Source: Octopus sinensis (taxonomy: Eukaryota). Taken from it: a stretch of DNA of 64,000 bases. The stretch lies in assembly GCF_006345805.1 (NCBI RefSeq), contig NC_043016.1:20336001-20400000 (forward strand). The letters are read 5' to 3'. This document shows positions 20,113 to 61,692 of the stretch, one piece after another; within the stretch, counting starts at the first letter, position 1; every line of letters begins with the position of its first letter. The notes beneath the pieces are model-generated. The model made no database searches, had not been told where the DNA came from, and worked only from the letters and a program-made list of their open reading frames with translations. A program made the translations under genes and the position numbers.

Positions 20113-20735
20113 TTGCTTCATGAAAAACTTTAACACCAATTGAACTTTTTTTTTTTCATTTCTTAGGGTATTCCTGACTATATAATTAATAAAATCTTAC
20201 AGACTTATAGACTTATTATTTTTGTTATGTCTTTAATAACCTGTCAAAGATTATATTTCAACTTGTTAGTAGTTTTATTTTTTGATGTACTTATTTCTTA
20301 TTTCCTAAGATACTCATGTAATAAGCCTTACATTTATAGCCTTTTTATTTCTATTGTCATTTCATCCATATCCTTTCAAAAATTGCCTCTAATTCTGTTA
20401 GAAAATATTGAAAATTGAATAGGTGTGATATAATAAATCACAATATCTTTATTCTTTAGTATAAACCAGTTATAACATATCGGCCTACTCAAAGTACAAG
20501 TGTATGCATATGCTTTATGAGATATGCAGACCACAGTCACTTAATTACATAAAGAGGAGTTAAAGTTTTTTGTTTCAACTTCACAACCCTGATTTAAAAT
20601 AAGGATTTATTCCATCTGTAAACAATGAGCAATTGTCACTATATTTGATATATGAAAAAACATTCTCTGATGACGTAATGAAGCCTCCAAGAATGTGTGT
20701 GTGTATATATATACACCTATACACATGTCCATATA

Positions 20736-21579
20736 CGAGGGACGTTCAATAAGTAATGCCTCTGACCCACTTGCAGTTGTTTGATCTAGCTGAAATTTTG
20801 CATGTGCAATCATTTATATCTCTATAGAGTAAGTGGCAAATTACAGTTCTGAATTAATTGTGGTTTCTGATTTGGAGATGTGCCAAGAAGATGAGTCAAA
20901 ATTTTTCAAAAGACTGATTACACAGGATGAAACCAGGGTCCATCACGATGATCCAGAGACCAAAGCCCAGTCAATGCAGTGGAAGCACCGTGACTCACCC
21001 CCTCCAAAGAATGCAAAGTTGCAGCCCTCCACTGGCAAGGTCATGCTCACAGTCTTCTGGGACCAGGACAGAGTAGTGATGACAGATTTCCTGGCAAAGG
21101 GAACCACAATTGCAGGAGTCTATTATGCTTCCCTTTTGAGGAAATTAAGAGAAGTTATCAAAATCAAGAGGCGGAGCAAGATCAGCAAAGGCATCCTCCT
21201 CCTGCAGGACAACGCTTCGGTCCACAACTCGCTTGTCGCCAGATCAGAAGCACAGGCGTATGGCTATGAACTCCTCCCCCATCCCCCTACTTTCCTGACC
21301 TTGCACCCTCTGATTTTCACCTCTTCCCAGTCATGAAGTTGTTTTTGAAAGGAAAGCGTTTCCCAGATGATGCAGCCTTGATTTCTGAAGTCACGTTCAG
21401 GTTGGAGGACCAAGCTGGGGTCTTCTACAAAAACGGTCTCCAGAGCTGCATCAAACAATGGGAGAAATGCGTAACTCTGGGTGGTTCCTATGTAGAAAAA
21501 GACTAATAACTGTGCCAAGTTCCGTTGCTCTACTGCTATGGGAAGTGGGTCAGGGGCATTACTTATTGAACGCCCCTCG
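20736..21579 (+). mobile_element. Internally deleted mariner element with both TIRs and TA TSD
   Basis: TA|cgagggacgttcaataagtaatgcctctgacccactt ... aagtgggtcaggggcattacttattgaacgcccctcg|TA; ITQDET, LQDNA and SDFHLF catalytic motifs; N-terminal HTH missing. Confidence 0.95.
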
Positions 21580-21619
21580 TACATACAAATGGTGATTGCC
21601 ACTTCTTAAAAGAAGAAGG

Positions 21620-22220: not shown

Positions 22221-22488
22221 CAAGTTTTACACATGCCTAACTTAGGGTCCATTCAGTGTCAAGGGCCCAAAAAAGTTTCATCTTCTTACCTAATTCAAGC
22301 CTGGAGCAATCTCTTATCTCTTACACTATTTCAGTATTACGTGTCATAGTGAAACAATAACATCTCTAATGTAATGTGAGTTAATACTTTCACTATTAAT
22401 ACTGAAACTATTATCTCACATGTATATATGCACACGCACATGCACACACACAATATATATTATGTATATATATATATTTAGTATATAC

Positions 22489-22521
<33 letters not shown>

Positions 22522-22578
22522 ATATTATATATATATATATATATGAGGGCATAAATTAGGTCATGCTAGAAAGAAGAG

Positions 22579-23327
22579 AATAATGGAATTTTTTAGAAAT
22601 TTGTTGGCTTTTTTCGAGTAGCGTGCGTATTGTGAAAAAATGATATGGTTAATGGACAATATGTCCAATTTTTTGGCATATTTGGCATTAGAAATCTTTT
22701 CCTTTCCTCATTTATGAATTGTTTATAAATTTAACCGTTAAAGGTATTTTTAATATGCTGGCCATTGATAAAATTTTTTTCGAGAAATATATTTTTTTCA
22801 AAAAGAATTTTATCCTCACATTTGATATAAATTTAAGCGTTCACTTCCGAACTAACTAATTCACTCTGTGAGAGCCTCAGTTCAAATCGCACGTGCCTCG
22901 AATGGCTGGGGTATTTCTATTTTGGATGTATTGGGGGGTACTTAGTTGTGCCCATAATAGTATTTGCTTCTTCCATGGGTGCGAGTAAGTATCTCATTTA
23001 TTTCTTTTGCCACATGTATCACTGAAGAAGAGAGGGCTCTTAGTAGCTAACTCTGAAATCGGTCCGATATGGTAATAATGGAATTTTTTAGAAATTTCTG
23101 TCGGCCTTTTTTCGAGTAGCGTGCGTATTGTGAAAAAATTATATGGTTAATGACAATATGTCCAATTTTTCGGCATATTTGGCATTAGAAATCTTTTCCT
23201 TTGCCTCATTTATGAATTGTTTATAAATTTAACCGTTAAAGGTATTTTTAATAGGCTGCTGGCCATGATAAAATTTTTTTTGAGAATTATTTTTTTTCGA
23301 AAAGAATTTTATCCTCACATTTGATAT
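22579..23327 (+). mobile_element. Candidate non-LTR retrozyme: 1.5 tandem copies of a 495-bp ORF-less unit with one HHR
   Basis: 22579-22828 recurs at 23074-23327; HHR sits at the unit junction; (TA)n on both flanks. Confidence 0.7.
23010..23073 (+). ncRNA. Type-I minimal hammerhead ribozyme
   Basis: tatca CTGAAGA AGAG..CTCT GAAA TCGG TC^ cgata; core intact; predicted cut after C23064. Confidence 0.8.
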
Positions 23328-23373
23328 ATATATATATAGATAAATATATATATATATAATATTTATGTATATA

Positions 23374-25391
23374 CTAGCTGGTGTACTGGTAATTCCCGGG
23401 GGGAAGGGGTAAAGATGTCTTATTGAAATGCCTTATTACTCTGATATAAGAAAGCAATTTCATTATAACTGCCACAAAATGTGTATTCTCCGTTGCGAAA
23501 AAGTACAAAAAACTGTCAGCTGGAGGAGGGAGAGATTGTTGGAGATTGGCAAGAAAGTACGCTGACTCGTCCTAGCATTTTAAAGGTGAACTTTATGAAG
23601 GCTAATTTATTACAGGTAATATATAAATGTAGTAGATATGTATATAAGTATATGAATGAAGTGTTTAATGTTTAAGAATGAAATGAAGAAAATGCAATAA
23701 TAACATTCACACTCACTGATGGTAGCCCTCAGTAACTGCCTTTAGCTTACAGAGTTCTTGTTTTTATAACTATCGAAAAGCAGCCAGAAAGATAGATATA
23801 TTGTTGAGAACAAATGATTTTGTTGAAGGTCTGTTATCTCCATTCCAGCTCCTAGTGGCCTGGAAGAGGTTAGAAGGGTCAAGTGGCAAAGACATTATTC
23901 TCCTTAGTGAAGGCATCTCAGAAATGTATAACTGCTGTCATTCACAGAAAAACTATTGTTTTACTGTGAGATAAGTTCTGTTGAGATGTTAAGTGAAATT
24001 TGGCAACAGAGGATCAAATCCACGCTATGCCTGCAGGAAGCCACTACAAATATGTTGTGGAATAAAAAATTGATCTACTATGGAAAAAGTGTAACTGTAA
24101 AAAGACAGATTTATTAGAGTAATAGGCATTCAAAAAAGTATGTATGCATAAAAATGTATGAATGAAGCCTTCAAGGTTTAAGATTCAAATCAAGGAAGTG
24201 CAATAATAATGTTTAGCAGTTCCAGCTGATCATGAGAATCAAAAAGTGATCACTTCGCTAAAAATTGCAGGTGGTATGGATTATTCCCTTGGGTTGCTTA
24301 AATAAAATATTAGTAATATGTAGTAGATAGAAGGATCCATTGGAGGGCCCATTTATCGACTTTTTTCAACAATCTAAGTATGTCACAAGGTTTCCAGACT
24401 TGAGTTCTACTTACGTGTCAAATAAAGTATAAAAGTGATATTGTCTGCAAAAATTAGAAATTGGACACACAAAAAATCATTATTCAAAGTAACTGAACAT
24501 AAACAATGAAACCTGTAAAATATTTCTAAATTCGATGGCTCAATCAGTTTTATGAAAATGTATAAACTATAAATAACCAATAAATATTATGATTTGTAAA
24601 ATAAGTATAAGTGATACAGGGTGTCCCAACTGAACGTTGTGTGGAAGTTTGGTTTCATTTTTTAAGAATTTTAAGCATTCAAAATATGTGTTCATTGTAT
24701 TGGGACACACTTATTAAATACATTCCAGAATCAAAAATTTCTGCAGTATTATCGAAAAATTTTAACTGGTAAAATGCAGAATTATCGGAGTTATGCGCAC
24801 TGAAAGTGTACATGCATCAAGAAAGTGGAATAATAAGGTTTAGCAGTTCAAAACTGTGAGTAGTGAGATGCAGGATAAGGTCTGCTGAATCTGGAATCAA
24901 AAATCTATGTACTGTCATTGGAAACATTTAACTAGGAAAATGCAGAATTATCAGAGTTATGGGCATTGAAAGTGTACAATCATCAAAAAAATGCAATAAT
25001 AAGGATTAGGAGTTGAAAACTGTGAGTAGTGAAATGCAGAATTAGGCTGGCTGATTGTGAGAAACAAATATAGATTGCTTTGCTAAAAACTAACAACTGC
25101 AAATGCAGATGCTATGGGTTATTTCCCTTGAGTGTTTAAAAAATATATTGTGCAGGTGCTATGGGTTATTTCTCTTGGGTGTTTAAAAAAGAGTAGTTAT
25201 ATGAGATAGATATAAAAATCCCTTCCAGGGGCTGTATTATCGATTTTTTTCAACAATCAAATTATGTCACAAGGTTTCCAGACATGAGTTCTACTCACAT
25301 GTCAAATTTCATCAAAATCAATAAAACGATGTAGGAGTTAGCTAAAAACACCACAAACAAACACACGATGATTTTCCACACATATAGTAGA
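23374..25391 (-). mobile_element. Non-autonomous Helitron-like element
   Basis: Minus strand starts A|TCtactatatg at 25391 and ends ccgggaattaccagtacaccagCTAG|T at 23374; internal repeats 24290-24420 vs 25170-25300 and tandem units of about 170 bp at 24720-25060. Confidence 0.7.
24617..24711. mobile_element. Tc1-type MITE nested in the Helitron
   Basis: TA|cagggtgtcccaa ... ttgggacacact|TA. Confidence 0.65.
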
Positions 25392-30349: not shown

Positions 30350-31045
30350 ACATTGACGTGTGCGTGTGTGCATGTGTAGGTGTATGGATTATGGTGAAGG
30401 GGTGCTGTAAAGTGGTCAGTGCTAGTGTGTGCAGGGGTGGTGTGATGTGGTGGTGGTGTGGTGTTGGGGTGTGGGAAAAGCGTGAGTGGGGAAGCAAGGG
30501 TGGGGTCTAAGGGATGAGGTGGGGGTGAGATGGGATGTATAGGGATGGTGGGGTTGGAATGTGTAGGAGTAGGGTAACAAGGGAGAGAGTGGAAGGGAGA
30601 AGGTGGGTAGGACTGAAAAGAGGAGGCAGTAGGTGCCAGAGCAAGAGAGGAGGTGGGTGGGAGGAAGTAGGTGTGAGAAGAAGAGAAGAGAGAGGAGGTC
30701 TCGGAGGTTGTGGGCTTGTTTGAAGGAGGAGAGGGGTCGGTAAGAGGAGATATGCGAAGTGAAGGAGTCAGACTGGAGTCACCGGAAGGCTCAGAGAATG
30801 GTGTGTTGGAGAGGTAGGGTGGTAGGTGAGGGGAAACAGGAGACAGTGGGGTAGATGTGGGGAAGAGAGCAGATGCACAGTCCATAGAACATGCTCTGGC
30901 AAGGGCAGTGTAGATAGTGGTGAGAGGATATCCACGTAGGATGATGTGGCAAGTCATGAGTTGAGACTGAGTTTCAAAGTCGTGGTTGTCACTACAGAGT
31001 CTGCATAAACAGAGGAATTGGGAATAGGGGATGGAGAGCTGGTCT
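30350..31045 (-). mobile_element. Penelope-like element fragment (RT thumb plus pyrimidine-rich tail)
   Basis: SIPYSQFLCLCRLCSDNHDFETQSQLM...LRGYP (PLE thumb motif). Confidence 0.7.
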
Positions 31046-44993: not shown

Positions 44994-45024
44994 TGTAAAG
45001 CTTTGTATAAGCTTTGTTGTGTTA

Positions 45025-48000
45025 AGTACTGGTTGTCCAACTCCACAATACCCTAACCTGAGTGAAATACAGGATATCTCACACTTTTGCAGAAAATTAT
45101 GCCTCACAGAGGAATTTTTTGACAAAGAAATCAATAACGATTAAATCAATGGTTCGTAACAAAAGGCAGAAACAAAACTTTGGACAAATTTTGTGACTAC
45201 ATTTCAATCTTTCCTTATAGTGAACTTTCACAACCTAAACCCAAACCCAATACTAGTAAAAGGGGATGGGAAATCATCTATGAGTTACGAAACAATTATG
45301 ACATCACAATCAAGGAAGCAGTACTGTCATCATTATGGATACTGAACAGTATAACTACTCTGTATCTCACCTTTTACAAGATACTACCTACTATTCACAA
45401 ACAATATGGATATTATCCATAATGTTAAAGTGATGCCGATAATGATCTCGGATCACAACATAATAGAGCTGTCTATGTATGGACCAAAAGCCCCCGTAGA
45501 CACACAGCCTATACGAAGCATCCACCATCTCTCCAACTTAAACTTTCATAAAGCAAACTGGAAGTTGATTGAGAAAGAGATCCTCAAACAGGATTGGCCT
45601 AAATGTCTCTCCACACCGGACATTAACATGAAACACAAACACTTCATGTCCATAATACAAGCCATATGTGACAAATATGTCCCAGTGTACAGGGCCAGCA
45701 CACACAAAAACAGGATCCCTAGAGAAAGGAGGATTCTTATGAGACGACGGACAAGGATTGCGAACCGCCTGAGCAAGCACACCAAAAGTGGTGAGAAGTC
45801 TCGGCTTGAGAGAATGCTAATGGAAATTGAGAAAAATCTGCATCAATCCCATGAAAAGGAGAGAGCAGATAAAGAAGTTTGGATAATAGAAAATATAAAA
45901 TCAAACCCTAAAGCTTTCTTTAAGTTTGCCAAAGAGACAGCCACAGTGCACCAGAGAATAGGACCTCTCTTCCAAAAAGATGGCTCTCTCACAGGAAATC
46001 CCACAAGGATAAGTGAAATACTGAACGAACAATTCCAAAGTGTGTTCACTACACCTCTGGGACACAGGCAAGTAAACAACCCAGACGAATTCTTTGCCAC
46101 TTTACCTGTGGCCAAAGAGGCAAAAATTGAGTACATCAACATTGAAGATGATGATATCACACTAGCCATAGATGAGATTAACACAAACTCAACTGCTGAA
46201 CCTGATGGATTTCCAGCGATCCTTCTCAAATCATGCAAACGAGCCCTTGCAAAACCGCTACAGCTACTTTTTCAGAGCTTCCTTGCAAGTGGTAAGCTCC
46301 CAGCCAAATTGAAAGAGGGGGTAATATGTCCTATCCATAAGGGAGGTAGCAGAGCAGATGCTAAAAATTATAGGCCTATCTCTCTGACCTCAAACATCAG
46401 CAAAGTCATGGAATGAATAGTCCACAAGAAACTAATCATGTACCTGGATTTCGACCAGGTAGAAGCTGCCTAACACAGCTCCTGCAACACTATACTGGGT
46501 GTTAAAACAGCTACTAAATGGCTCAAATGTGGATGTAATATATCTCGACTTTGCAAAAGCCTTTGATAAAGTCGACCATGGTATGATCTGTCACAAACTG
46601 CGTGGTCTCGGCAGAGGCGGAAAACTTGGAGAGTGGCTGCTCAACTTCCTAAAAGACAGAAGACAGGCAGTTGTGAGCAATGGAGCCACCTCCAAGGAAA
46701 CACAAATAACAAGCGGTGTTCCACAGGGCACTGTCTTGGGGGCCACTGCTGTTCATAGGGGCCCTTTCAGACATGCCTTCAGTTGCTACGATGGCCACCC
46801 TTGCTAGCTATGCAGATGACACAAAAGTCTCCCACACAATACAAAACCCTGAAAATATTGCGCATCTGCAACAGGAGTTGGATAAAATATATAGGTGGGT
46901 GGAGGACAACAACATGCAGCTTAATGCAGGTAAGTTCCAGGCCCTGCGCTACTGGCACACAAAGGTAAACGATATGCAGACTGGATACACTGGCCCAGGA
47001 AGAATTGCAATCCCTGAGTGAAAATCAGTGTGTGACCTAGGCATTGACATGAGCAATGATGCATCTTTCCAAGTGCATATTACTAATCTGGTGATAAAAT
47101 GCAGACGGCTAGCTGGATGGATTCTCCGAACTTTCAGAACAAGAGAGAAGGAGACACTGATGGTCCTCTGGAAAACATTCATCCTCAGCCACTTGGACTA
47201 CTGCTCCCAACTATGGTCACCACCCAATATAAAACTAACAGCAGAACTCGAAGCAATTCAGAGAAGCTACACAAAGAAGATCGTCTCAATGCAAAATATC
47301 AGCTACTGGGAAAGACAAAGTATTAAACCTCTTCTCCCTAGAGCGGAGGCGGGAGAGATATGCGGTGATATACATCTGGAAAATCCTGGAGGGTCTTGTC
47401 CCAAACTTTGGCATTCAAAGTTACCCCAATCGCAGAACGGGGCGCCACTGCATGGTGCCAAAGATTCCAACATCACCATCAAAATACAGGACCAGATACT
47501 GCAACAGCTTGGGTTTCAGAGGACCACAGCTCTTTAACATCCTCCCTAAATGCCTAAGAGACTTACATGGTGTGGATGTGAGTTTCTTTAAAACTAAACT
47601 GGATCTCTTCTTGTCGGGAGTCCCAGATGAATCTACCTCACGACAGGAGACGCAGATGCGGGCAGCAGCATCGAACTCCCTTGTTGATCAAGTGCCACGT
47701 ATCAGAGGTGGATTCACATATTAGTGTAGCTCATTCAGCGGTGGTGCCCCAGCATGGCAGCGGCCTTCGGGCTAAAACATTTTTAAGGATTTAAGAGCAA
47801 TCAGAACAATTACCAAATTAGACACACTCATTTGCCAACATCGAAATAATTTAACAGCAAAGGAATGTGACTACATAACAAACTTTAATTGCAAAACCAG
47901 CATCCTCTATGAACTTCCAAAAATCCACAAGAGCAAAATTATTACTGAAGCTTGCAAAAAGTCCTCTTCAACCTGCATCACTGTGCCACATCCGACTGAT

Positions 48001-49258
48001 CTCAAACTGAGACCAATTGTGGCAGGCCCAAACAATGAAACACACAGATTAAGCAACTTTATTGATATCATCTTAAAACCAATATTTAAACACATACCAA
48101 GTATTGTAAGAGATGACCTGGACCTATTAAATCATCTCCTCAAACATACCAATAAAGACATTTTCATTGTCTCCTATGATATAATAAACCCTTACACTAC
48201 GATCCCACATGAATATGGACCGGAAGTCATTAAATTCTTGCAAGAAAAATATCTCAATGAGGTCCTGGAAAGAATAAAAAAAGAATTCATCATCAAGGGC
48301 CTTACGTTTATTCTCCAAAACAACTTTATGAATTTTCATAATAACACCTACAGACAGGTATCAGCGACTGCAATGGGTACTAAAGTTGCTCCTACTTATG
48401 CAAATCTGGTGATGGCCTACCTAGAATTACAAATTTATGACAAATCCAAATATAAGTATGGCCTGTCTTTCCACAAATACCTGTTGGAGAATTGGAAATG
48501 CCACTTAGATAATTGCCTCATCCTATGGTCCCACACACTCAACCAACTTATTGACTTCAAAAACCTAATCAACAGTGTCAACAACCATATCCAATTTACA
48601 ATGGAATATAGTCAAGACCAACTTCCTTTTCTTGACATTCTTCTTATTAAAAAAGGCACCAACATTGAAACAGATACCCACTACAAACCAACTGATTACA
48701 AACAATACCTTCTGTTCACCTCCAATTACCCAAAGCACACGAAGACAAACATCCCCTTCAACCTAATGAGAAGAATCTGCACAATTGTCTCAAATCATAG
48801 AACACGAAATAAAAGACTCCAAGAAATAAGAGCAATTCTTCTTGAAAAACATTACCCAGCATCACTAGTTAACAGTGAAATAGAACGGGCCCAGACTATT
48901 ACTACCCAAGACTTATGAAAACCAAAACACACTCAAGGTACAGTAAATAACCTCCCCTATCTCTCAATACACAATCCAAGAAATGCAGAAGCTTACACAA
49001 TTATATACAAGAACATCCTACAGCTGAATCAAGACCCACGTCTAAAAAAGTACTCGCAACCCATAAAATAATAAAAGCAAAAGACAACCCAAATCCCGAA
49101 AAAACCTACTCACCAATGCAAAATTACCTAACACAAGCCCACCGACAAAAAATGTAGTCGTTCCAACTGCAGGACTTGCATCCACCTCATTGAAGGAACA
49201 ATGTAAAAATTCCAGTTGGGACACGCTTTTGTCATAAAAAATAACTTCACCTGTGCAT
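45025..49258 (+). mobile_element. Penelope-like element (RT plus Cys linker), split by a LINE and 3'-truncated
   Basis: YELPKIHK, RPIVAG, SYDIINPYTTIP, YRQVSATAMG, LPFLDI (ORF 47983..48918); KKCSRSNCRTC linker; N-terminal part ITIKEA...LQDTTYY at 45300-45418. Confidence 0.92.
45419..47795 (+). mobile_element. 5'-truncated CR1/jockey-group LINE, relatively young
   Basis: SDHN, NYRPISLTS, YLDFAKAFDKVDH, GVPQGTVLG, YADD, LDYCSQLW, stop at 47724; short 3' UTR and (ttaagga)n-like tail; few frameshifts. Confidence 0.95.
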
Positions 49259-49778
49259 CAATTTTGGAATTTATTGCGTTTTTAAATTTTGTAATCTATT
49301 TTTATCGAGAATTCTATTTTTGAATCATTTTGGAATCTATTTTGTTTTTCTCTAGTTAATTTTAATTAGTTTTTGTTTATTTTCAGATCATTAAAATGGA
49401 ATGTCAAGTTTAAAAAAATGAGCATTTTTGACACTTCCTTCTTTTTGCTTGTAATCAAGGTTCTAAGGCTGCAAAAGCTGCTTGCGACATTTGTGCTGTG
49501 TATGGAGAGGGTACCATAGTCGAAAGAACCGCTCTTAATAGGTATGCCAAGTTCAAAAATGGAAATTTTGACCTCGAAGACGCACCTCATTGTGGTTGTC
49601 CAGTTGAGTTCAATGAAGAGCGATTAAACTAACTTTTGCATGAAAATTCTTGTCAAATGACAAGGTAACTGGCAGAGAAATGGAATGTTCTCACACTACT
49701 ATAGAGAAGCATCTTCACTCAATGGAAAAGGTTCAGAAGTATGGAGCATGGATTCAGCATGCTTTAAGTGACAAGAAC
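49259..49778 (+). mobile_element. mariner 5' fragment (HTH region)
   Basis: AAKAACDICAVYGEG...YAKFKNGNFDLEDAP.CGCP...GAWIQHALS. Confidence 0.85.
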
Positions 49779-51355
49779 AGGTGATGAAAGTTATAGAAAG
49801 GGTCATAGCTCAATTAATTAGGAAGAGAGGTAGCGGAGATGCAGTTTCGATATGTGCCAAGGAAAAGCATGACTGATGCTATATTCCTGGATAGGCAACT
49901 GCAGCCGAAGCATTTACCCCAAAATAAACCTCTGTACTTGGCTTTTGTCAACATGGAGAAAGCCTTTGACAGGGTCCTCTACTCCTCTATCTGGTGGTCA
50001 ATGTGGAAGTGGGGATAGATGAGTGGTTAGTGAGAGCTGTACAAGCCATGTACAGGTATACTGCCAGTAAGGTGAAGGTTGGTAACCAATATAGCAATGA
50101 ATTCATTGAATGTGTAGGAGTTCACCAAGGATCAGTTCTCATCCTCTTCTTGTTTATCTTAGTCCTCCAGGCCATAACAGAGGAATTGAAGACCAGCTGC
50201 TTCTGGGGTCTCCTCTATGCTGATGACCTTGTTTTTATAGCTCAATCATTACTTGACCTAGAGAAGAATTTTCAGGTGTGCAAGCAAGGCCTGAAATCTA
50301 AGGGCCATAAGAGTTAATTTAGCAAAAACCAAAGTTCTAGTAAGTACAAAAACAGACAAATCACAAGTCCTTTCAGGGAGATGGCCTGTTCAATATGTAT
50401 GAAGGGGATTTGTAGAAATTCCGTTGTACCTAGTGTAAGCTTTAGACACATAAGAGGTGTAGCAGTATCACAGGAAGGTTAAAGGAAAAAGTAGTCATTG
50501 TGTGTAACAAATGTGTGGGTACAATAAGCACTAAAAATGCACAGGTAATAGACTCCTTCAAATGCTTCAGGGGACCATTAGAAGTAGTAGATAGTTTCTG
50601 TTACCTAGGAGACCAAGTTATCACCGTAGGGGGAAGCTCTTAGAGTGTAGTTACTAGAATAAGAATGGGCTGGAAAAAATTTCAGAGAGCTTCTACTTTT
50701 GTTGGTAACTAAGGGCCTCTCCCTCAAAGTGAAAGCCAGATTGTATGATGTCTGTGTACATACAGCTTTGTTACATGGTAGTGAAACATGGATTTTGACT
50801 TGTGAAGGCTTGAAAGAAATGAAGCTAGCATGTAAATGATTTAAGAGGAAAACTGGGTAAAGAGGTATCAAATTTTGTGTGCAAGAGAGAAGACTGCACT
50901 GGTTTGGTCATGTGATGAGTATGGATGAGGACAGCTGCTGAGCTCTAAGTTTGGCGGGAACTTGTAGAAGGGGTAGATTGAGGAAGACATGGGGCAAAGT
51001 GGTGAAAAGGTATCTTTGGATGCTGGGCCTTACTGAGGACATGACAATGGACCAGGAGTTGTGGCAATTTCCTGTACTTGAGAAGACATGCCAAGCTAGG
51101 TAAAATCACTGCCATCCATACATACAGGTTTGTCCTTCAAAATACACACATAAAATACACTCATGCTGGTGTGGCAAAATGCACCCATGCCAATGGCATG
51201 TAAAAAGCACCCTGGACAGTCAGCAAAGTGGTTAGGAAGGGCATCTAGTCATAAAAACCATGCTACAAGAGACAGAGTCTGGACAGCTGCATGTCAAATT
51301 GTCCAACCCATGCCGGCATGGAAAACAGATGTATGATGATGTTGATGATGATGAT
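49779..51355 (+). mobile_element. RTE LINE 3' part
   Basis: MEKAFDRV, GVHQGSVL, LLYADDLV, Cys finger, FCYLG, HWFGHV, 3' UTR and (gat)n tail. Confidence 0.9.
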
Positions 51356-56260: not shown

Positions 56261-56834
56261 GCCAAGTGAGACCATAACCCATGGCCTATGCCAGTGGTGT
56301 TACCAGCCCACTTATCCGTACCTTCCCTTCATTGGACACTAAACTCTGCTTGCAAAGACCTGTTAAGGCAAGTGAAATCGAAATCAAATTCGATGACAGC
56401 ACCACTTGACTGGCATCCATGCTAGTGGAGCGCTAAGAGCACCATCCAAGCATGATTGTTGCCAGGGCCGCTGACTGGTTCCTGTGCCGGTGGCACGTAA
56501 AAAGCACCATTTGAGCGTGATTGTTACCAGTGTCACCTTACTGGCACTTGTGCTGGTGGCACATGAAAGACAACATTTGAGCAAGGTCGTTGCCAGTGCT
56601 GCTGGACTGGCTCCTGTGCAGGTGGCACGCAAAAAACACCATTTGAGCGTGGCCATTGCCAGTACCGCCTGACTGGCCCTTGTGCCGGTGGCATGTAAAA
56701 GCACCCACTACACTCTCGGAATGGTTGGCATTAGGAAGGGCATCAAGCTGTAGAATCTCTGCCAGTCCTCAGTCAAACCGTCCAACCCATGCCAGCATGG
56801 AAAGCAGATGTTAAACGATGATGATGATGATGAT
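56260..56834 (+). mobile_element. RTE 3' UTR with tandem repeats of about 66 bp
   Basis: tgtgccggtggcacgtaaaaagcacc repeated four times, then the standard RTE tail and (gat)n. Confidence 0.85.
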
Positions 56835-60096: not shown

Positions 60097-60800
60097 TTAC
60101 TTGACCCAAATCACTGCACTCCATAGTAATGTCAAAATAATCAGGCCTGTCAGTTCTAGTCCAATACTTCCCATTGAATTCAATTATGGTTTTCCTAGCT
60201 GTTAGTACTATATCAACCTCTTGGTTACTTGACCCAAATCACTGCACCCTATAGTAATGTCAAAATAATCAGGCCTGTCAGTTCTAGTCCAATACTTCCC
60301 ATCGAATTCAATTATGGTTTTCCTAGCTGTTAGTACTATATTGACCTCACATTTGGATAATTCTGAATTCTTCATAGTGAAAATTAATGCTTTATTCAGA
60401 AAGATAGTGTTGATAGATGAGTAATAATTAGAAATATCCAACTGAATGAATCTAGTATGTTTTTTATCCTTAGTGTTAATGTCAGTGAACCAACTAATAA
60501 CCTCCAAAGAATTAGATAAAAAAAAAACTAATATATTGTTCACGCTTAGGAATATGTAAATGAATAATAAATTTACTAATCTTATAAATATCTTGTTTCA
60601 ATGGGCAGATCAGCCTAACCTGTGGATCAATATTACAATTAGGATTAAATTAGTTCTGGGGGTTTTGGGAGTGTAAGGTTCAGTTCGATTTTCAACTTGT
60701 AGGTCTTCAAAAATGCCTTTGACAATTATGTTAATGCTTAGTAAATTTTCTTTGGAGGTAATTTTATAATCCTTTGTTGTTTTGTAACTAAAGAGAAGTA
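60097..60800 (-). mobile_element. Penelope-like element RT fragment with 128-bp junction duplication
   Basis: FIQLDISNYYSSI...ARKTII...FDITIGCSDLGQV; 60097-60220 recurs at 60225-60347. Confidence 0.8.
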
Positions 60801-60924
60801 TTTTTCTTGTTTATTCTGCACACATAAGAGTATGTGCATTGGAGAACTATTGGCATATATCTATGCACATAAGTATATGTATGTATGTTTATGCATATAT
60901 ATATATATATATATATATAGGGTT

Positions 60925-61692
60925 TGGTTCTTAGCTCCCATTTTATTTATCATGGTCCTCCAAGCTATAACTGAGGAACTTAAGACTGGCTGCCCTTGGG
61001 AGCTCCTCTATACTGATAACTTTGTTCTTATTGCTGTATCACTACCAAAACTGGAGAAGAAATTTCAGGCATGGAAGCAAGGGCTGGAATCAAAGGGCCT
61101 TAGAGTTAATTTAACAAGGACAAAAATATTGATAAGGGAGATGGCTCTGCTCAATATGTAGAAAAGGTGTCAGGAAAAACTCCATATGGTGTACACTGTG
61201 CAAGCTATGGACATATAAGAGGTGCAACTGTGTCACTGGATGACTAATGGAGAAAGTAGTCTTTACATGTGGCAAATGTGCAGGTACATTAAACACCAGT
61301 TATATAAAAAAAACAAAAAACTCCTTCATATGTCAGTGGAGATCCCTAGAACTAGTAGACAGTTTCCGTTTCTTAGGTGACCAAGTTAGTAGTAGGGGTG
61401 GTTGTTCCAAAAGCATAGCTGCTAGAATAAGAATAGGCCGAGTAAAGTTCAGAGAATGACTACTTCTGTTAGTAACAAAGAGCATCTCCCAGTGAAAAAA
61501 GCACCTGTGCCGGTGCTGCATAAAAGCACCCATTACACTCTGTAAAGTGGTTGGCATTAGGAAAGGCATCCGATCATAGAAACCATGCCAAAACAGATAT
61601 GGAGCTTGAACAGCCCTTCAGCTGGTAAGCTCTTGTCAAACTATCCAACTCATGCTAGCATCGAAAACAAATGATGATGATGATGATAATGA
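60925..61692 (+). mobile_element. RTE LINE 3' fragment with internal deletion
   Basis: LQAITEELKTGCPWELLY, Cys finger, FRFLGD joined directly to the 3' tail. Confidence 0.88.

What the first reader, a model, noticed from the sequence alone, without database searches (positions are those of the whole stretch)
22579..23327. Candidate octopus non-LTR retrozyme: 495-nt tandem unit starting next to its own hammerhead cut site
Seen: an ORF-less unit repeats with period 495 (22579 vs 23074) and has an intact type-I HHR core at the junction (CTGAAGA-AGAG..CTCT-GAAA-TCGGTC^). The first copy begins about 9 nt downstream of the position equivalent to the predicted cut, and the array sits between (TA)n tracts. 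A B-box-like GTTCAAATC lies at 22881. Established: non-LTR retrozymes are tandem HHR repeats that yield self-cleaved monomers and circRNAs and are thought to use PLE reverse transcriptase. Inference: this is a cDNA of a cleaved multimer or circle, from a family I do not know to be described in cephalopods.
Basis: partly seen in the sequence, partly recalled or inferred. Interest (0 to 1): 0.82.

Follow-up and report, generated by a model that had tools for sequence, protein, structure and literature searches.

The report
Octopus hammerhead-ribozyme jumping repeat
This is a worn one-and-a-half-unit copy of an abundant non-coding octopus repeat that carries a conserved self-cutting RNA motif and was likely pasted into TA microsatellites by a Penelope-type retrotransposon enzyme, making it a probable new cephalopod member of a known class (retrozymes) whose cutting and circular RNA remain untested.

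Summary
The repeat is real but smaller than described: about 1.5 units (251-nt partial copy + 244-nt middle + 255-nt copy) with one hammerhead, and a 34-nt non-family head before the left (TA)n. The first copy starts 9 nt after the predicted cut. The host is an octopod, and the family is high-copy in four organism labels. Family alleles hit the free core position 7 and change two stem II pairs on both sides, and they spare the unit's predicted fold (z -4.9), so the motif is not chance. But the monomer is predicted to fold with its core blocked, stem I closes on an A-C mismatch, and Rfam finds nothing. Family 3' ends fall not at the cut but about 160 and 262 nt downstream, each at the TATA of a repeated 16-nt motif next to (TA)n. 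This resembles the internal priming shown for a Penelope element. The B-box is chance-level. Best reading: a non-autonomous, Penelope-mobilised hammerhead repeat (non-LTR retrozyme type), apparently undescribed in cephalopods. Cleavage, transcription, circles and the helper were not shown. New member of a known kind; interest 0.42.

The parts
22453..22544 (.). Left (TA)n microsatellite, likely part of the target
22545..22578 (.). 34-nt head, not matched to the family; host DNA, filler or a PLE-type 'tail' (unresolved)
   Evidence: No contig cover at 22545-71 in 4 runs; no match to the unit above shuffles
22579..22829 (+). Part A, first copy; begins 9 nt after the position equivalent to the predicted cut
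22830..23073 (+). Part B, single copy here, ending with the hammerhead and 9 nt after the cut
   Evidence: A-to-B junction bridged by X4 record 17 and X9 record 25
23007..23075 (+). Type I hammerhead motif: bulged stem I (23007-12/23070-75, 23017-20/23066-69), core 23022-28 and 23055-58, stem II 23029-54 (4+4 bp), self-complementary stem III strand 23058-63, predicted cut after 23064
   Evidence: family alleles
23074..23328 (+). Part A, second copy; ends in an ATATA microhomology with the right (TA)n
22594..22919 (+). Predicted long-range helix pairing the start of A (22594-22650) with mid-B (22873-22919, which includes the B-box-like word)
   Evidence: main helices p 0.92-0.99; also forms in the B-then-A permutation
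22767..22814 (.). 48-nt AT-rich hairpin 11 nt before the main 3' end (second copy 23267-23313)
22935..22995 (+). Predicted 10+10 bp hairpin in B; family alleles at 22952, 22981 and 22982 keep pairing
22724..22739 (+). Copy 1 of a 16-nt motif TATAAATTTAA(C/G)CGTT (also 23222-23237); minor family 3'-end class lies at its TATA
22826..22841 (+). Copy 2 of the 16-nt motif, spanning the A-to-B junction; the main 3' end, including that of this insertion, lies at its TATA
22880..22888 (+). B-box-like word, judged chance or part of the long helix
23324..23373 (.). Right (TA)n microsatellite, likely priming site

Best explanation
This is a 1.5-unit copy of a high-copy, non-coding octopod repeat whose 495-nt unit carries a structurally conserved type I hammerhead motif, and it was most likely copied from RNA into a (TA)n tract by the RT-endonuclease of a Penelope-like element acting in trans. 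Steps: (1) SHOWN: a fixed unit (B, hammerhead, A) joined head to tail, many copies in four organism labels, ends next to (TA)n. (2) PREDICTED: the plus-strand unit folds as one branched RNA, and family variation spares that fold. (3) INFERRED: multimers are transcribed, probably not by Pol III. (4) PREDICTED: the hammerhead is closed as a monomer and would cut slowly, as a dimer or with protein help, so partly cleaved multimers (and perhaps ligated circles) would persist. (5) INFERRED: a PLE endonuclease nicks (TA)n and the RT starts inside the RNA at the UAUA of one of two copies of a 16-nt motif, about 160 or 262 nt after the cut. (6) INFERRED, weakest: here cDNA ran through one uncut hammerhead and stopped 9 nt short of an RNA 5' end made by the previous hammerhead. 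The copy has since decayed and, with one hammerhead, could not release a unit RNA by itself.
For: High copy: 20 of 24 listed runs hold part of it (4 organism labels, 9 studies); 4198, 2226, 3423 and 146 contig records were laid in the 4 runs tested. Hammerhead not chance: 0 hits in 5000 shuffles. Of 40 alleles shown (16 hidden), 6 fall in 23022-64: one at free position 7 (A>C, about 99% of depth in the three large runs, 90% in X9), one in the stem II loop, and four forming two both-sided changes (23031/23052 A-U to G-C; 23037/23046 C-G to U-A); none hits an invariant core base. Whole-unit structure: circular MFE -126.8 vs -100.6+-5.3, z -4.9, 0 of 100 shuffles; linear permutations z -3.7 and -5.8; minus strand z -2.5. 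Of 33 allele sites, 5 break a pair vs 11.6 expected (P=0.002); outside the hammerhead 5 of 27 vs 9.2 (P=0.027); minus-strand control P=0.20. Same A-to-B junction in runs of two organism labels (2 of 32 listed records). 3' ends at TATA then TA repeats: loose-end consensus at the A end (4 of 9 such rows run clearly into TA) and after 23225 (rows in 4 of 4 runs); the 16-nt repeat (15/16) arises in 3 of 300 shuffles. Five of 15 shown joints are strand inversions, a PLE trait; one lies at 23064, the cut base, in 3 runs. A PLE RT with a C-x4-C-x2-C linker exists in this window, and PLEs cover 6.83% of the O. vulgaris genome (PMC13282606 supplement). Internal RT initiation downstream of the hammerhead, and protein-assisted cleavage, are shown for a lizard PLE (PMC11167929).
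Against: One hammerhead only, so this copy fails the 'active retrozyme' definition of Li et al. 2026. No Rfam match. A-C mismatch at the stem I closing pair and A-U at 10.1-11.1, with no correcting allele among the 40 shown; the closed fold stays favoured with majority alleles. A subfamily with an altered cleavage triplet appears in 7 contigs of X3 and 15 of X4, so copies can apparently spread without the canonical core. Hammerhead cleavage was dispensable for insertion in the lizard PLE, and 8 of 9 Xenopus retrozyme dimers did not cleave. The two compensatory pairs alone are not significant (P=0.069), and alleles are not independent events. The 23205 loose ends have median length 14-18, so only a minority reach the end point. 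The unit has only three TATA sites, so plain microhomology could explain the ends. No sequence link to the PLE remnant in the window (score 38 vs 38-53 in control tiles). No target-site duplication is readable. One of 18 non-overlapping control tiles folded with a stronger z.
Confidence: 0.7

Rival explanations
1. The unit is the pseudo-LTR of an autonomous octopus Penelope/Neptune element, and these copies are 5'-truncated or partial-tandem by-products of that element rather than a self-standing non-autonomous family.
For: Same layout as PLE pLTRs: hammerhead followed by the insertion's 3' end (PMC11167929). Partial tandems and inverted junctions are PLE hallmarks. Three X1 contigs carry unrelated A-rich sequence (median 67 letters) upstream of 22862. 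Li et al. 2026 find 24 of 57 Xenopus retrozyme families homologous to Repbase elements, nearly all PLEs.
Against: No ORF remnant in A or B; best tblastn E 0.035 inside the element with 120 PLE-family proteins. The same A-to-B junction is bridged in two organism labels. The long helix ties A to B as one unit.
Confidence: 0.17
2. A monomer was inserted and part A was later duplicated locally at DNA level, so the 495-nt period and the start 9 nt after the cut are accidents of this locus.
For: The two A copies differ by 8 substitutions and 10 gap bases. One copy cannot establish a pattern; a random 5' end falls within 10 nt after the cut about 2% of the time (my arithmetic, post hoc).
Against: The A-to-B junction exists in other genomes' contigs, and the 16-nt motif and the helix at 22815-72 span it.
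Confidence: 0.08
3. A non-autonomous DNA element (Helitron/Helentron- or MITE-like) with a subterminal hairpin that happens to contain a hammerhead-like motif.
For: A 48-nt hairpin 11 nt before the 3' end; TA targets.
Against: No terminal inverted repeats. No 5'-TC or CTRR-3' ends in the sequence (Helitron end motifs recalled). Structure conservation is plus-strand and RNA-like. Hammerhead covariation.
Confidence: 0.05

Closest known systems
Metazoan non-LTR retrozymes (coral, mussel Mytilus galloprovincialis, axolotl; Cervera and De la Pena 2020, PMC7229834; Li, Clavereau and Pollet 2026, bioRxiv 10.64898/2026.07.22.740005)
   Same: ORF-less, low-GC (34%) head-to-tail unit with one type I hammerhead per unit, short self-complementary stem III, highly self-paired predicted RNA, thousands of contig records, PLEs in the same genome.
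   Different: The unit is 495 nt, against 150-450 nt in the 2020 paper but within the 51-972 nt of the 2026 preprint. This copy has one hammerhead. The core is predicted blocked by self-pairing, whereas the 2020 paper says most metazoan circles leave it free, some mussel circles excepted. Defined 3' ends at (TA)n. No expression or circle data here.
pLTRs of endonuclease-bearing Penelope-like elements with minimal hammerheads (Penelope/Poseidon, Neptune; PMC4209133, PMC3846280, PMC11167929)
   Same: CUGANGA(H)-stem II-GAAA-palindrome-UH layout; partial tandem; inverted junctions; 3' ends downstream of the hammerhead at two internal positions; AT-rich or microsatellite target.
   Different: No ORF or ORF start. 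The two end classes are about 102 nt apart rather than a 30-40 nt tail. The ends match the target by TATA microhomology, whereas the lizard PAc starts RT at a site not homologous to the cut DNA. Stem II ends in U rather than the consensus C before GAAA.
Naiad PLEs and non-autonomous Chlamys elements such as MRC1 (Craig et al. 2021, bioRxiv 10.1101/2021.04.23.441226)
   Same: (TA)n insertion bias that hides target-site duplications; head-to-tail non-autonomous copies; Naiads occur in Octopus.
   Different: Naiads and most Chlamys lack hammerheads; this family has one.
tRNA-derived SINEs
   Same: Short, non-coding, high-copy, ends at a simple repeat; one B-box-like word.
   Different: No A-box, ten T>=4 runs, B-box word at chance level, tandem junction and hammerhead present.

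Membership tests
Non-LTR retrozyme | Type I hammerhead core in the unit | tested here: met
   All invariant bases present; 0 of 5000 shuffles; family alleles spare the core. No Rfam model match.
Non-LTR retrozyme | No protein-coding capacity; no LTR/PBS/PPT architecture | tested here: met
   Longest stop-free frame 62 codons; no convincing PLE protein match. PBS and PPT judged by eye only.
Non-LTR retrozyme | Head-to-tail repeat unit of a few hundred bases, dispersed at high copy | tested here: met
   495-nt unit; junction bridged in two organism labels; thousands of contig records.
Non-LTR retrozyme | At least two consecutive units each with a complete hammerhead ('active' definition of Li et al. 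2026) | tested here: not met
   Not met for this copy: one hammerhead. Whether other loci of the family meet it could not be tested: no genome held, and contigs are too short.
Non-LTR retrozyme | Self-cleavage of the RNA (monomer or dimer) | not testable with these tools
   Folding predicts a closed monomer and a weak 6-bp dimer stem III (-3.1 kcal/mol).
Non-LTR retrozyme | Expressed as unit-length linear and circular RNA | not testable with these tools
   No holder on record as RNA; contigs cannot show ends, strand or circles.
Non-LTR retrozyme | Highly self-paired unit RNA | tested here: met
   z -4.9 circular; alleles avoid breaking pairs, P=0.002. Prediction only.
Autonomous PLE / ordinary pLTR | Adjacent RT + GIY-YIG ORF | tested here: not met
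   None within 2 kb; nearest PLE remnant is 22 kb away with no shared sequence. Other copies not testable.
Autonomous PLE / ordinary pLTR | Partial tandem and inverted 5' copies | tested here: met
   Partial tandem here; 5 of 15 shown joints are inversions. The tool warns that such joints are less reliable at 80% likeness.
Autonomous PLE / ordinary pLTR | Optional 30-40 nt tail | tested here: inconclusive
   The 34-nt head has the right size but no family cover.
tRNA-derived SINE | A- and B-box internal Pol III promoter without internal T runs | tested here: not met
   No A-box; ten T>=4 runs; B-box word in 15% of shuffles.
Helitron / MITE | 5'-TC and CTRR-3' ends with hairpin, or terminal inverted repeats | tested here: not met
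   Hairpin present but no such ends or TIRs; end motifs recalled.

The most novel reading that the evidence does not exclude
An abundant octopod retrozyme whose priming signal lies just beyond the copied end: the Penelope RT starts at the UAUA of a twice-repeated 16-nt motif, and the main copy of that motif is complete only across the unit junction. Only circles or multimers, never a lone genomic monomer, would then be full templates, while a self-blocked hammerhead meters their supply. This would tie retrozyme circles to PLE internal initiation and explain why these elements must be tandem.
Probability: 0.2. Interest if true: 0.68.

Novelty: new member of a known kind. Interest (0 to 1): 0.42.

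Why it matters
It extends hammerhead-bearing non-autonomous repeats to cephalopods; my paper searches found none described there. Repbase, Dfam and the O. vulgaris library with 190 Penelope-like families were not visible and may already hold the consensus. The family offers something the retrozyme literature lacks: defined 3' ends tied to a repeated motif and a microsatellite target. That makes the open question of which RT mobilises retrozymes, and from what template (circle, multimer or uncut RNA), testable by end mapping in existing octopus assemblies and by an in vitro priming assay.

Tried and rejected
Own genome: none held, so no copy census. Rfam: no hammerhead family at either threshold; the 18 weak hits were unrelated families far below their gathering scores. 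Metagenome scan: 1 hit, a chance 20-mer in unrelated DNA. Prokaryote and viral pattern scans: 120 and 11 loci, none with similarity to the element (all 132 loci held were blasted, only the chance 20-mer at E<0.01); a family-specific 20-mer gave 0 viral hits. Earlier findings of the scan: 0 by sequence, genome or relatives, and one unrelated note by words. Expression: no RNA holder listed; X9 is only guessed to be RNA, so it is not used as evidence of transcription. Contig depth was not used as copy number or as a 5'-truncation profile. Pol III promoter from the B-box: rejected. Head as a degenerate hammerhead or inverted end: not above chance. Target-site duplication: unreadable in TA repeats. 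The window's PLE remnant as direct parent: no shared DNA and no pLTR or hammerhead left. A-to-I editing of A23021 as an on-switch: rejected; the closed fold stays favoured by 4.2 kcal/mol and all 7 A>G places of X9 are accounted for elsewhere. Supplements not seen: PMC7229834 (too large), file 1 of PMC4209133, and both bioRxiv papers' supplements; a cephalopod entry there cannot be excluded.

Full report
Observation. The stretch between two (TA)n tracts (22453-22544 and 23324-23373) reads: a 34-nt head (22545-22578), part A (22579-22829), part B ending in a hammerhead motif (22830-23073), and part A again (23074-23328). The two A copies share 246 of 254 aligned bases with 10 gap bases. So the 495-nt period is right, but only about half the unit is repeated and there is one hammerhead. 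No other copy lies in the window. There is no ORF.

The hammerhead. All invariant core bases are in place. My type I descriptor found only this site in 64 kb, against 0 hits in 5000 shuffles of the element and 4 in 100 shuffles of the window. Stem I is 4 bp, a 4-nt bulge and 6 bp; stem II is 4+4 bp; the stem III strand is a self-complementary hexamer that could pair between two copies (-3.1 kcal/mol). This is the dimer-type architecture described for metazoan repeats and PLEs (PMC4209133, parts 1-2 of 4 read). Against activity: the pair closing stem I is an A-C mismatch, stem II closes on A-U, the monomer is predicted to pair the core with the stem III strand (p about 1.0; closed -18.4 vs open -12.0), and Rfam gives no hammerhead hit. 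Both odd positions sit in CA/TG contexts that could be CpG decay (inference).

The family. No genome is held, so I used public runs. Twenty of 24 listed runs hold part of the element, across four organism labels and nine studies; the best share is 0.35 and none is on record as RNA. I laid 4 of the 24 runs at 80% likeness: 4198, 2226, 3423 and 146 contig records matched. The element is therefore a high-copy family and this copy is diverged. Of 40 alleles shown (16 hidden), six lie in the hammerhead between 23022 and 23064. One is at the free position 7, one in the stem II loop, and four change two stem II pairs on both sides (A-U to G-C; C-G to U-A, with equal depth in X9). None touches an invariant base, and none corrects the A-C mismatch. 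A subfamily with an altered cleavage triplet shows as a loose end in 7 contigs of X3 and 15 of X4. The A-to-B junction is bridged in 2 of the 32 listed records, from two organism labels, so the unit junction is a family feature.

Whole-unit structure. The 495-nt unit folded as a circle gives -126.8 kcal/mol against -100.6 +- 5.3 (z -4.9, 0 of 100). The two linear permutations give z -3.7 and -5.8, and the minus strand -2.5. One of 18 non-overlapping control tiles was more extreme; one further tile overlapped the element and one with Ns was dropped. A long helix joins the start of A to mid-B and absorbs the B-box-like word. I mapped 39 of the 40 alleles to 33 distinct unit sites. Five break a predicted pair against 11.6 expected (P=0.002); outside the hammerhead it is 5 of 27 against 9.2 (P=0.027); the minus-strand control gives P=0.20. 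The count of both-sided pairs alone is not significant (P=0.069). Alleles are not independent events, so these P values are optimistic. The helix forms in linear and circular forms alike and does not prove a circle.

Ends. Of 24 loose-end rows shown (586 hidden), 9 concern the A end and 4 of these run clearly into TA repeats at the place where this copy ends. Four more rows, one per run, turn into TA after the equivalent of 23225; their median length of 14-18 means only a minority of those contigs reach that point. Both end classes fall on the TATA that opens a 16-nt motif present twice in the unit (22724 and 22826; 15 of 16 identical; 3 of 300 shuffles match this), about 160 and 262 nt after the cut. 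The unit has only three TATA sites, so simple microhomology could suffice. Family 3' ends are thus not at the cut. For 5' ends the data are thin: this copy at +9, and among 5 strand-inversion joints (15 of 24 joints shown) one at 23064, the cut base itself, in one contig of each of three runs, and one near +22/+32 in two runs. One of ten joint ends falling within a base of the cut has about a 6% chance (my arithmetic, post hoc), and the tool warns about joints at this likeness. A circle has no end, so if the +9 start is meaningful it points to a linear multimer cut once, not a circle.

Host and helper. An ORF at 47776-48915 has its best hit in Octopus bimaculoides (82% identity) and its relatives carry RT and GIY-YIG domains, which places the window in an octopod and shows that PLEs are present. 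The remnant (about 45004-49260, interrupted by a LINE) has a C-x4-C-x2-C linker, the motif proposed to bias Neptune elements to microsatellites (Craig et al., passages). It has no pLTR left and no DNA similarity to the unit (score 38, controls 38-53), so it is not shown to be the helper.

Comparison with the literature. Non-LTR retrozymes are ORF-less tandem repeats with type I hammerheads, expressed as circles in coral, mussel and axolotl (PMC7229834, parts 2-4 of 6 and a term search with no 'octopus' or 'cephalopod'; supplement unreadable). A 2026 preprint derives them from PLE pLTRs, requires two consecutive hammerheads for an active copy, and saw cleavage in 1 of 9 dimers (parts 1-3 of 5). 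In a lizard PLE, RT starts internally at two sites downstream of the hammerhead, the ribozyme needs protein, and cleavage is not needed for insertion (PMC11167929, parts 1-2 of 4). Partial tandems, inverted copies and tails are described in PMC3846280 (passages), and weak natural stems in PMC3088659 (passages). Two cephalopod repeat papers mention Penelope elements but no ribozyme (PMC13282606 passages and supplement; PMC8967140 passages). Searches listed no cephalopod hammerhead family; repeat databases were not visible.

Verdict. It works like a non-LTR retrozyme, a non-autonomous PLE partner (0.70). The family meets the sequence-level criteria; this copy fails the two-hammerhead criterion, and cleavage and circles are untested. 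An ordinary pLTR by-product is the main rival (0.17), then local duplication (0.08) and a DNA element (0.05). It is a new member of a known kind. Interest 0.42.

Noticed in passing
window 45004-49260 (+): Decayed Penelope-like element (RT, C-x4-C-x2-C linker, start of the endonuclease region), best hit Octopus bimaculoides at 82%; split by a LINE insertion; no pLTR left.
   Followed up: partly
window about 45355-47776 (+): Frameshifted LINE-type RT (Pfam RVT_1 weak hits) inserted inside the PLE remnant; clade (CR1/Jockey-like) judged from memory.
   Followed up: no
window 20724-21591: Mariner-like element with 49-nt inverted ends (88% complementary) and a Pfam Transposase_1 match (E 7e-22), 860 nt left of the finding.
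   Followed up: no
window 23374-23420: A different repeat appears to begin right after the right (TA)n, with a CTAG end and a GC-rich stretch, like a worn Helitron-type end (recalled pattern).
   Followed up: no
window 22549-22558: A 10-nt word of the 34-nt head also occurs in an X9 loose-end consensus behind 23105 (6 contigs); the head may come from a diverged relative of part A. Unexplained.
   Followed up: partly
window 22862 (loose end, run X1): Three contigs carry about 67 unrelated A-rich letters upstream of part B; a possible parent element.
   Followed up: no
window 56438-56705: Four tandem copies of a 66-nt unit resembling an octopus SINE body repeat (recalled, not tested).
   Followed up: no
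window 23631-25307: A nest of 40-166 nt direct repeats at spacings of 166, 506, 838 and 884 nt, probably rearranged non-autonomous DNA elements.
   Followed up: no
window 49940-51100 and 60745-61158: Further decayed LINE RT pieces (RVT_1 weak hit at 60745; RTE-like by eye).
   Followed up: no
window 30808-31041 (-): One weak tblastn match (E 3e-5) to a PLE-family protein inside a 266-codon open frame; possibly a second, older PLE fragment.
   Followed up: no
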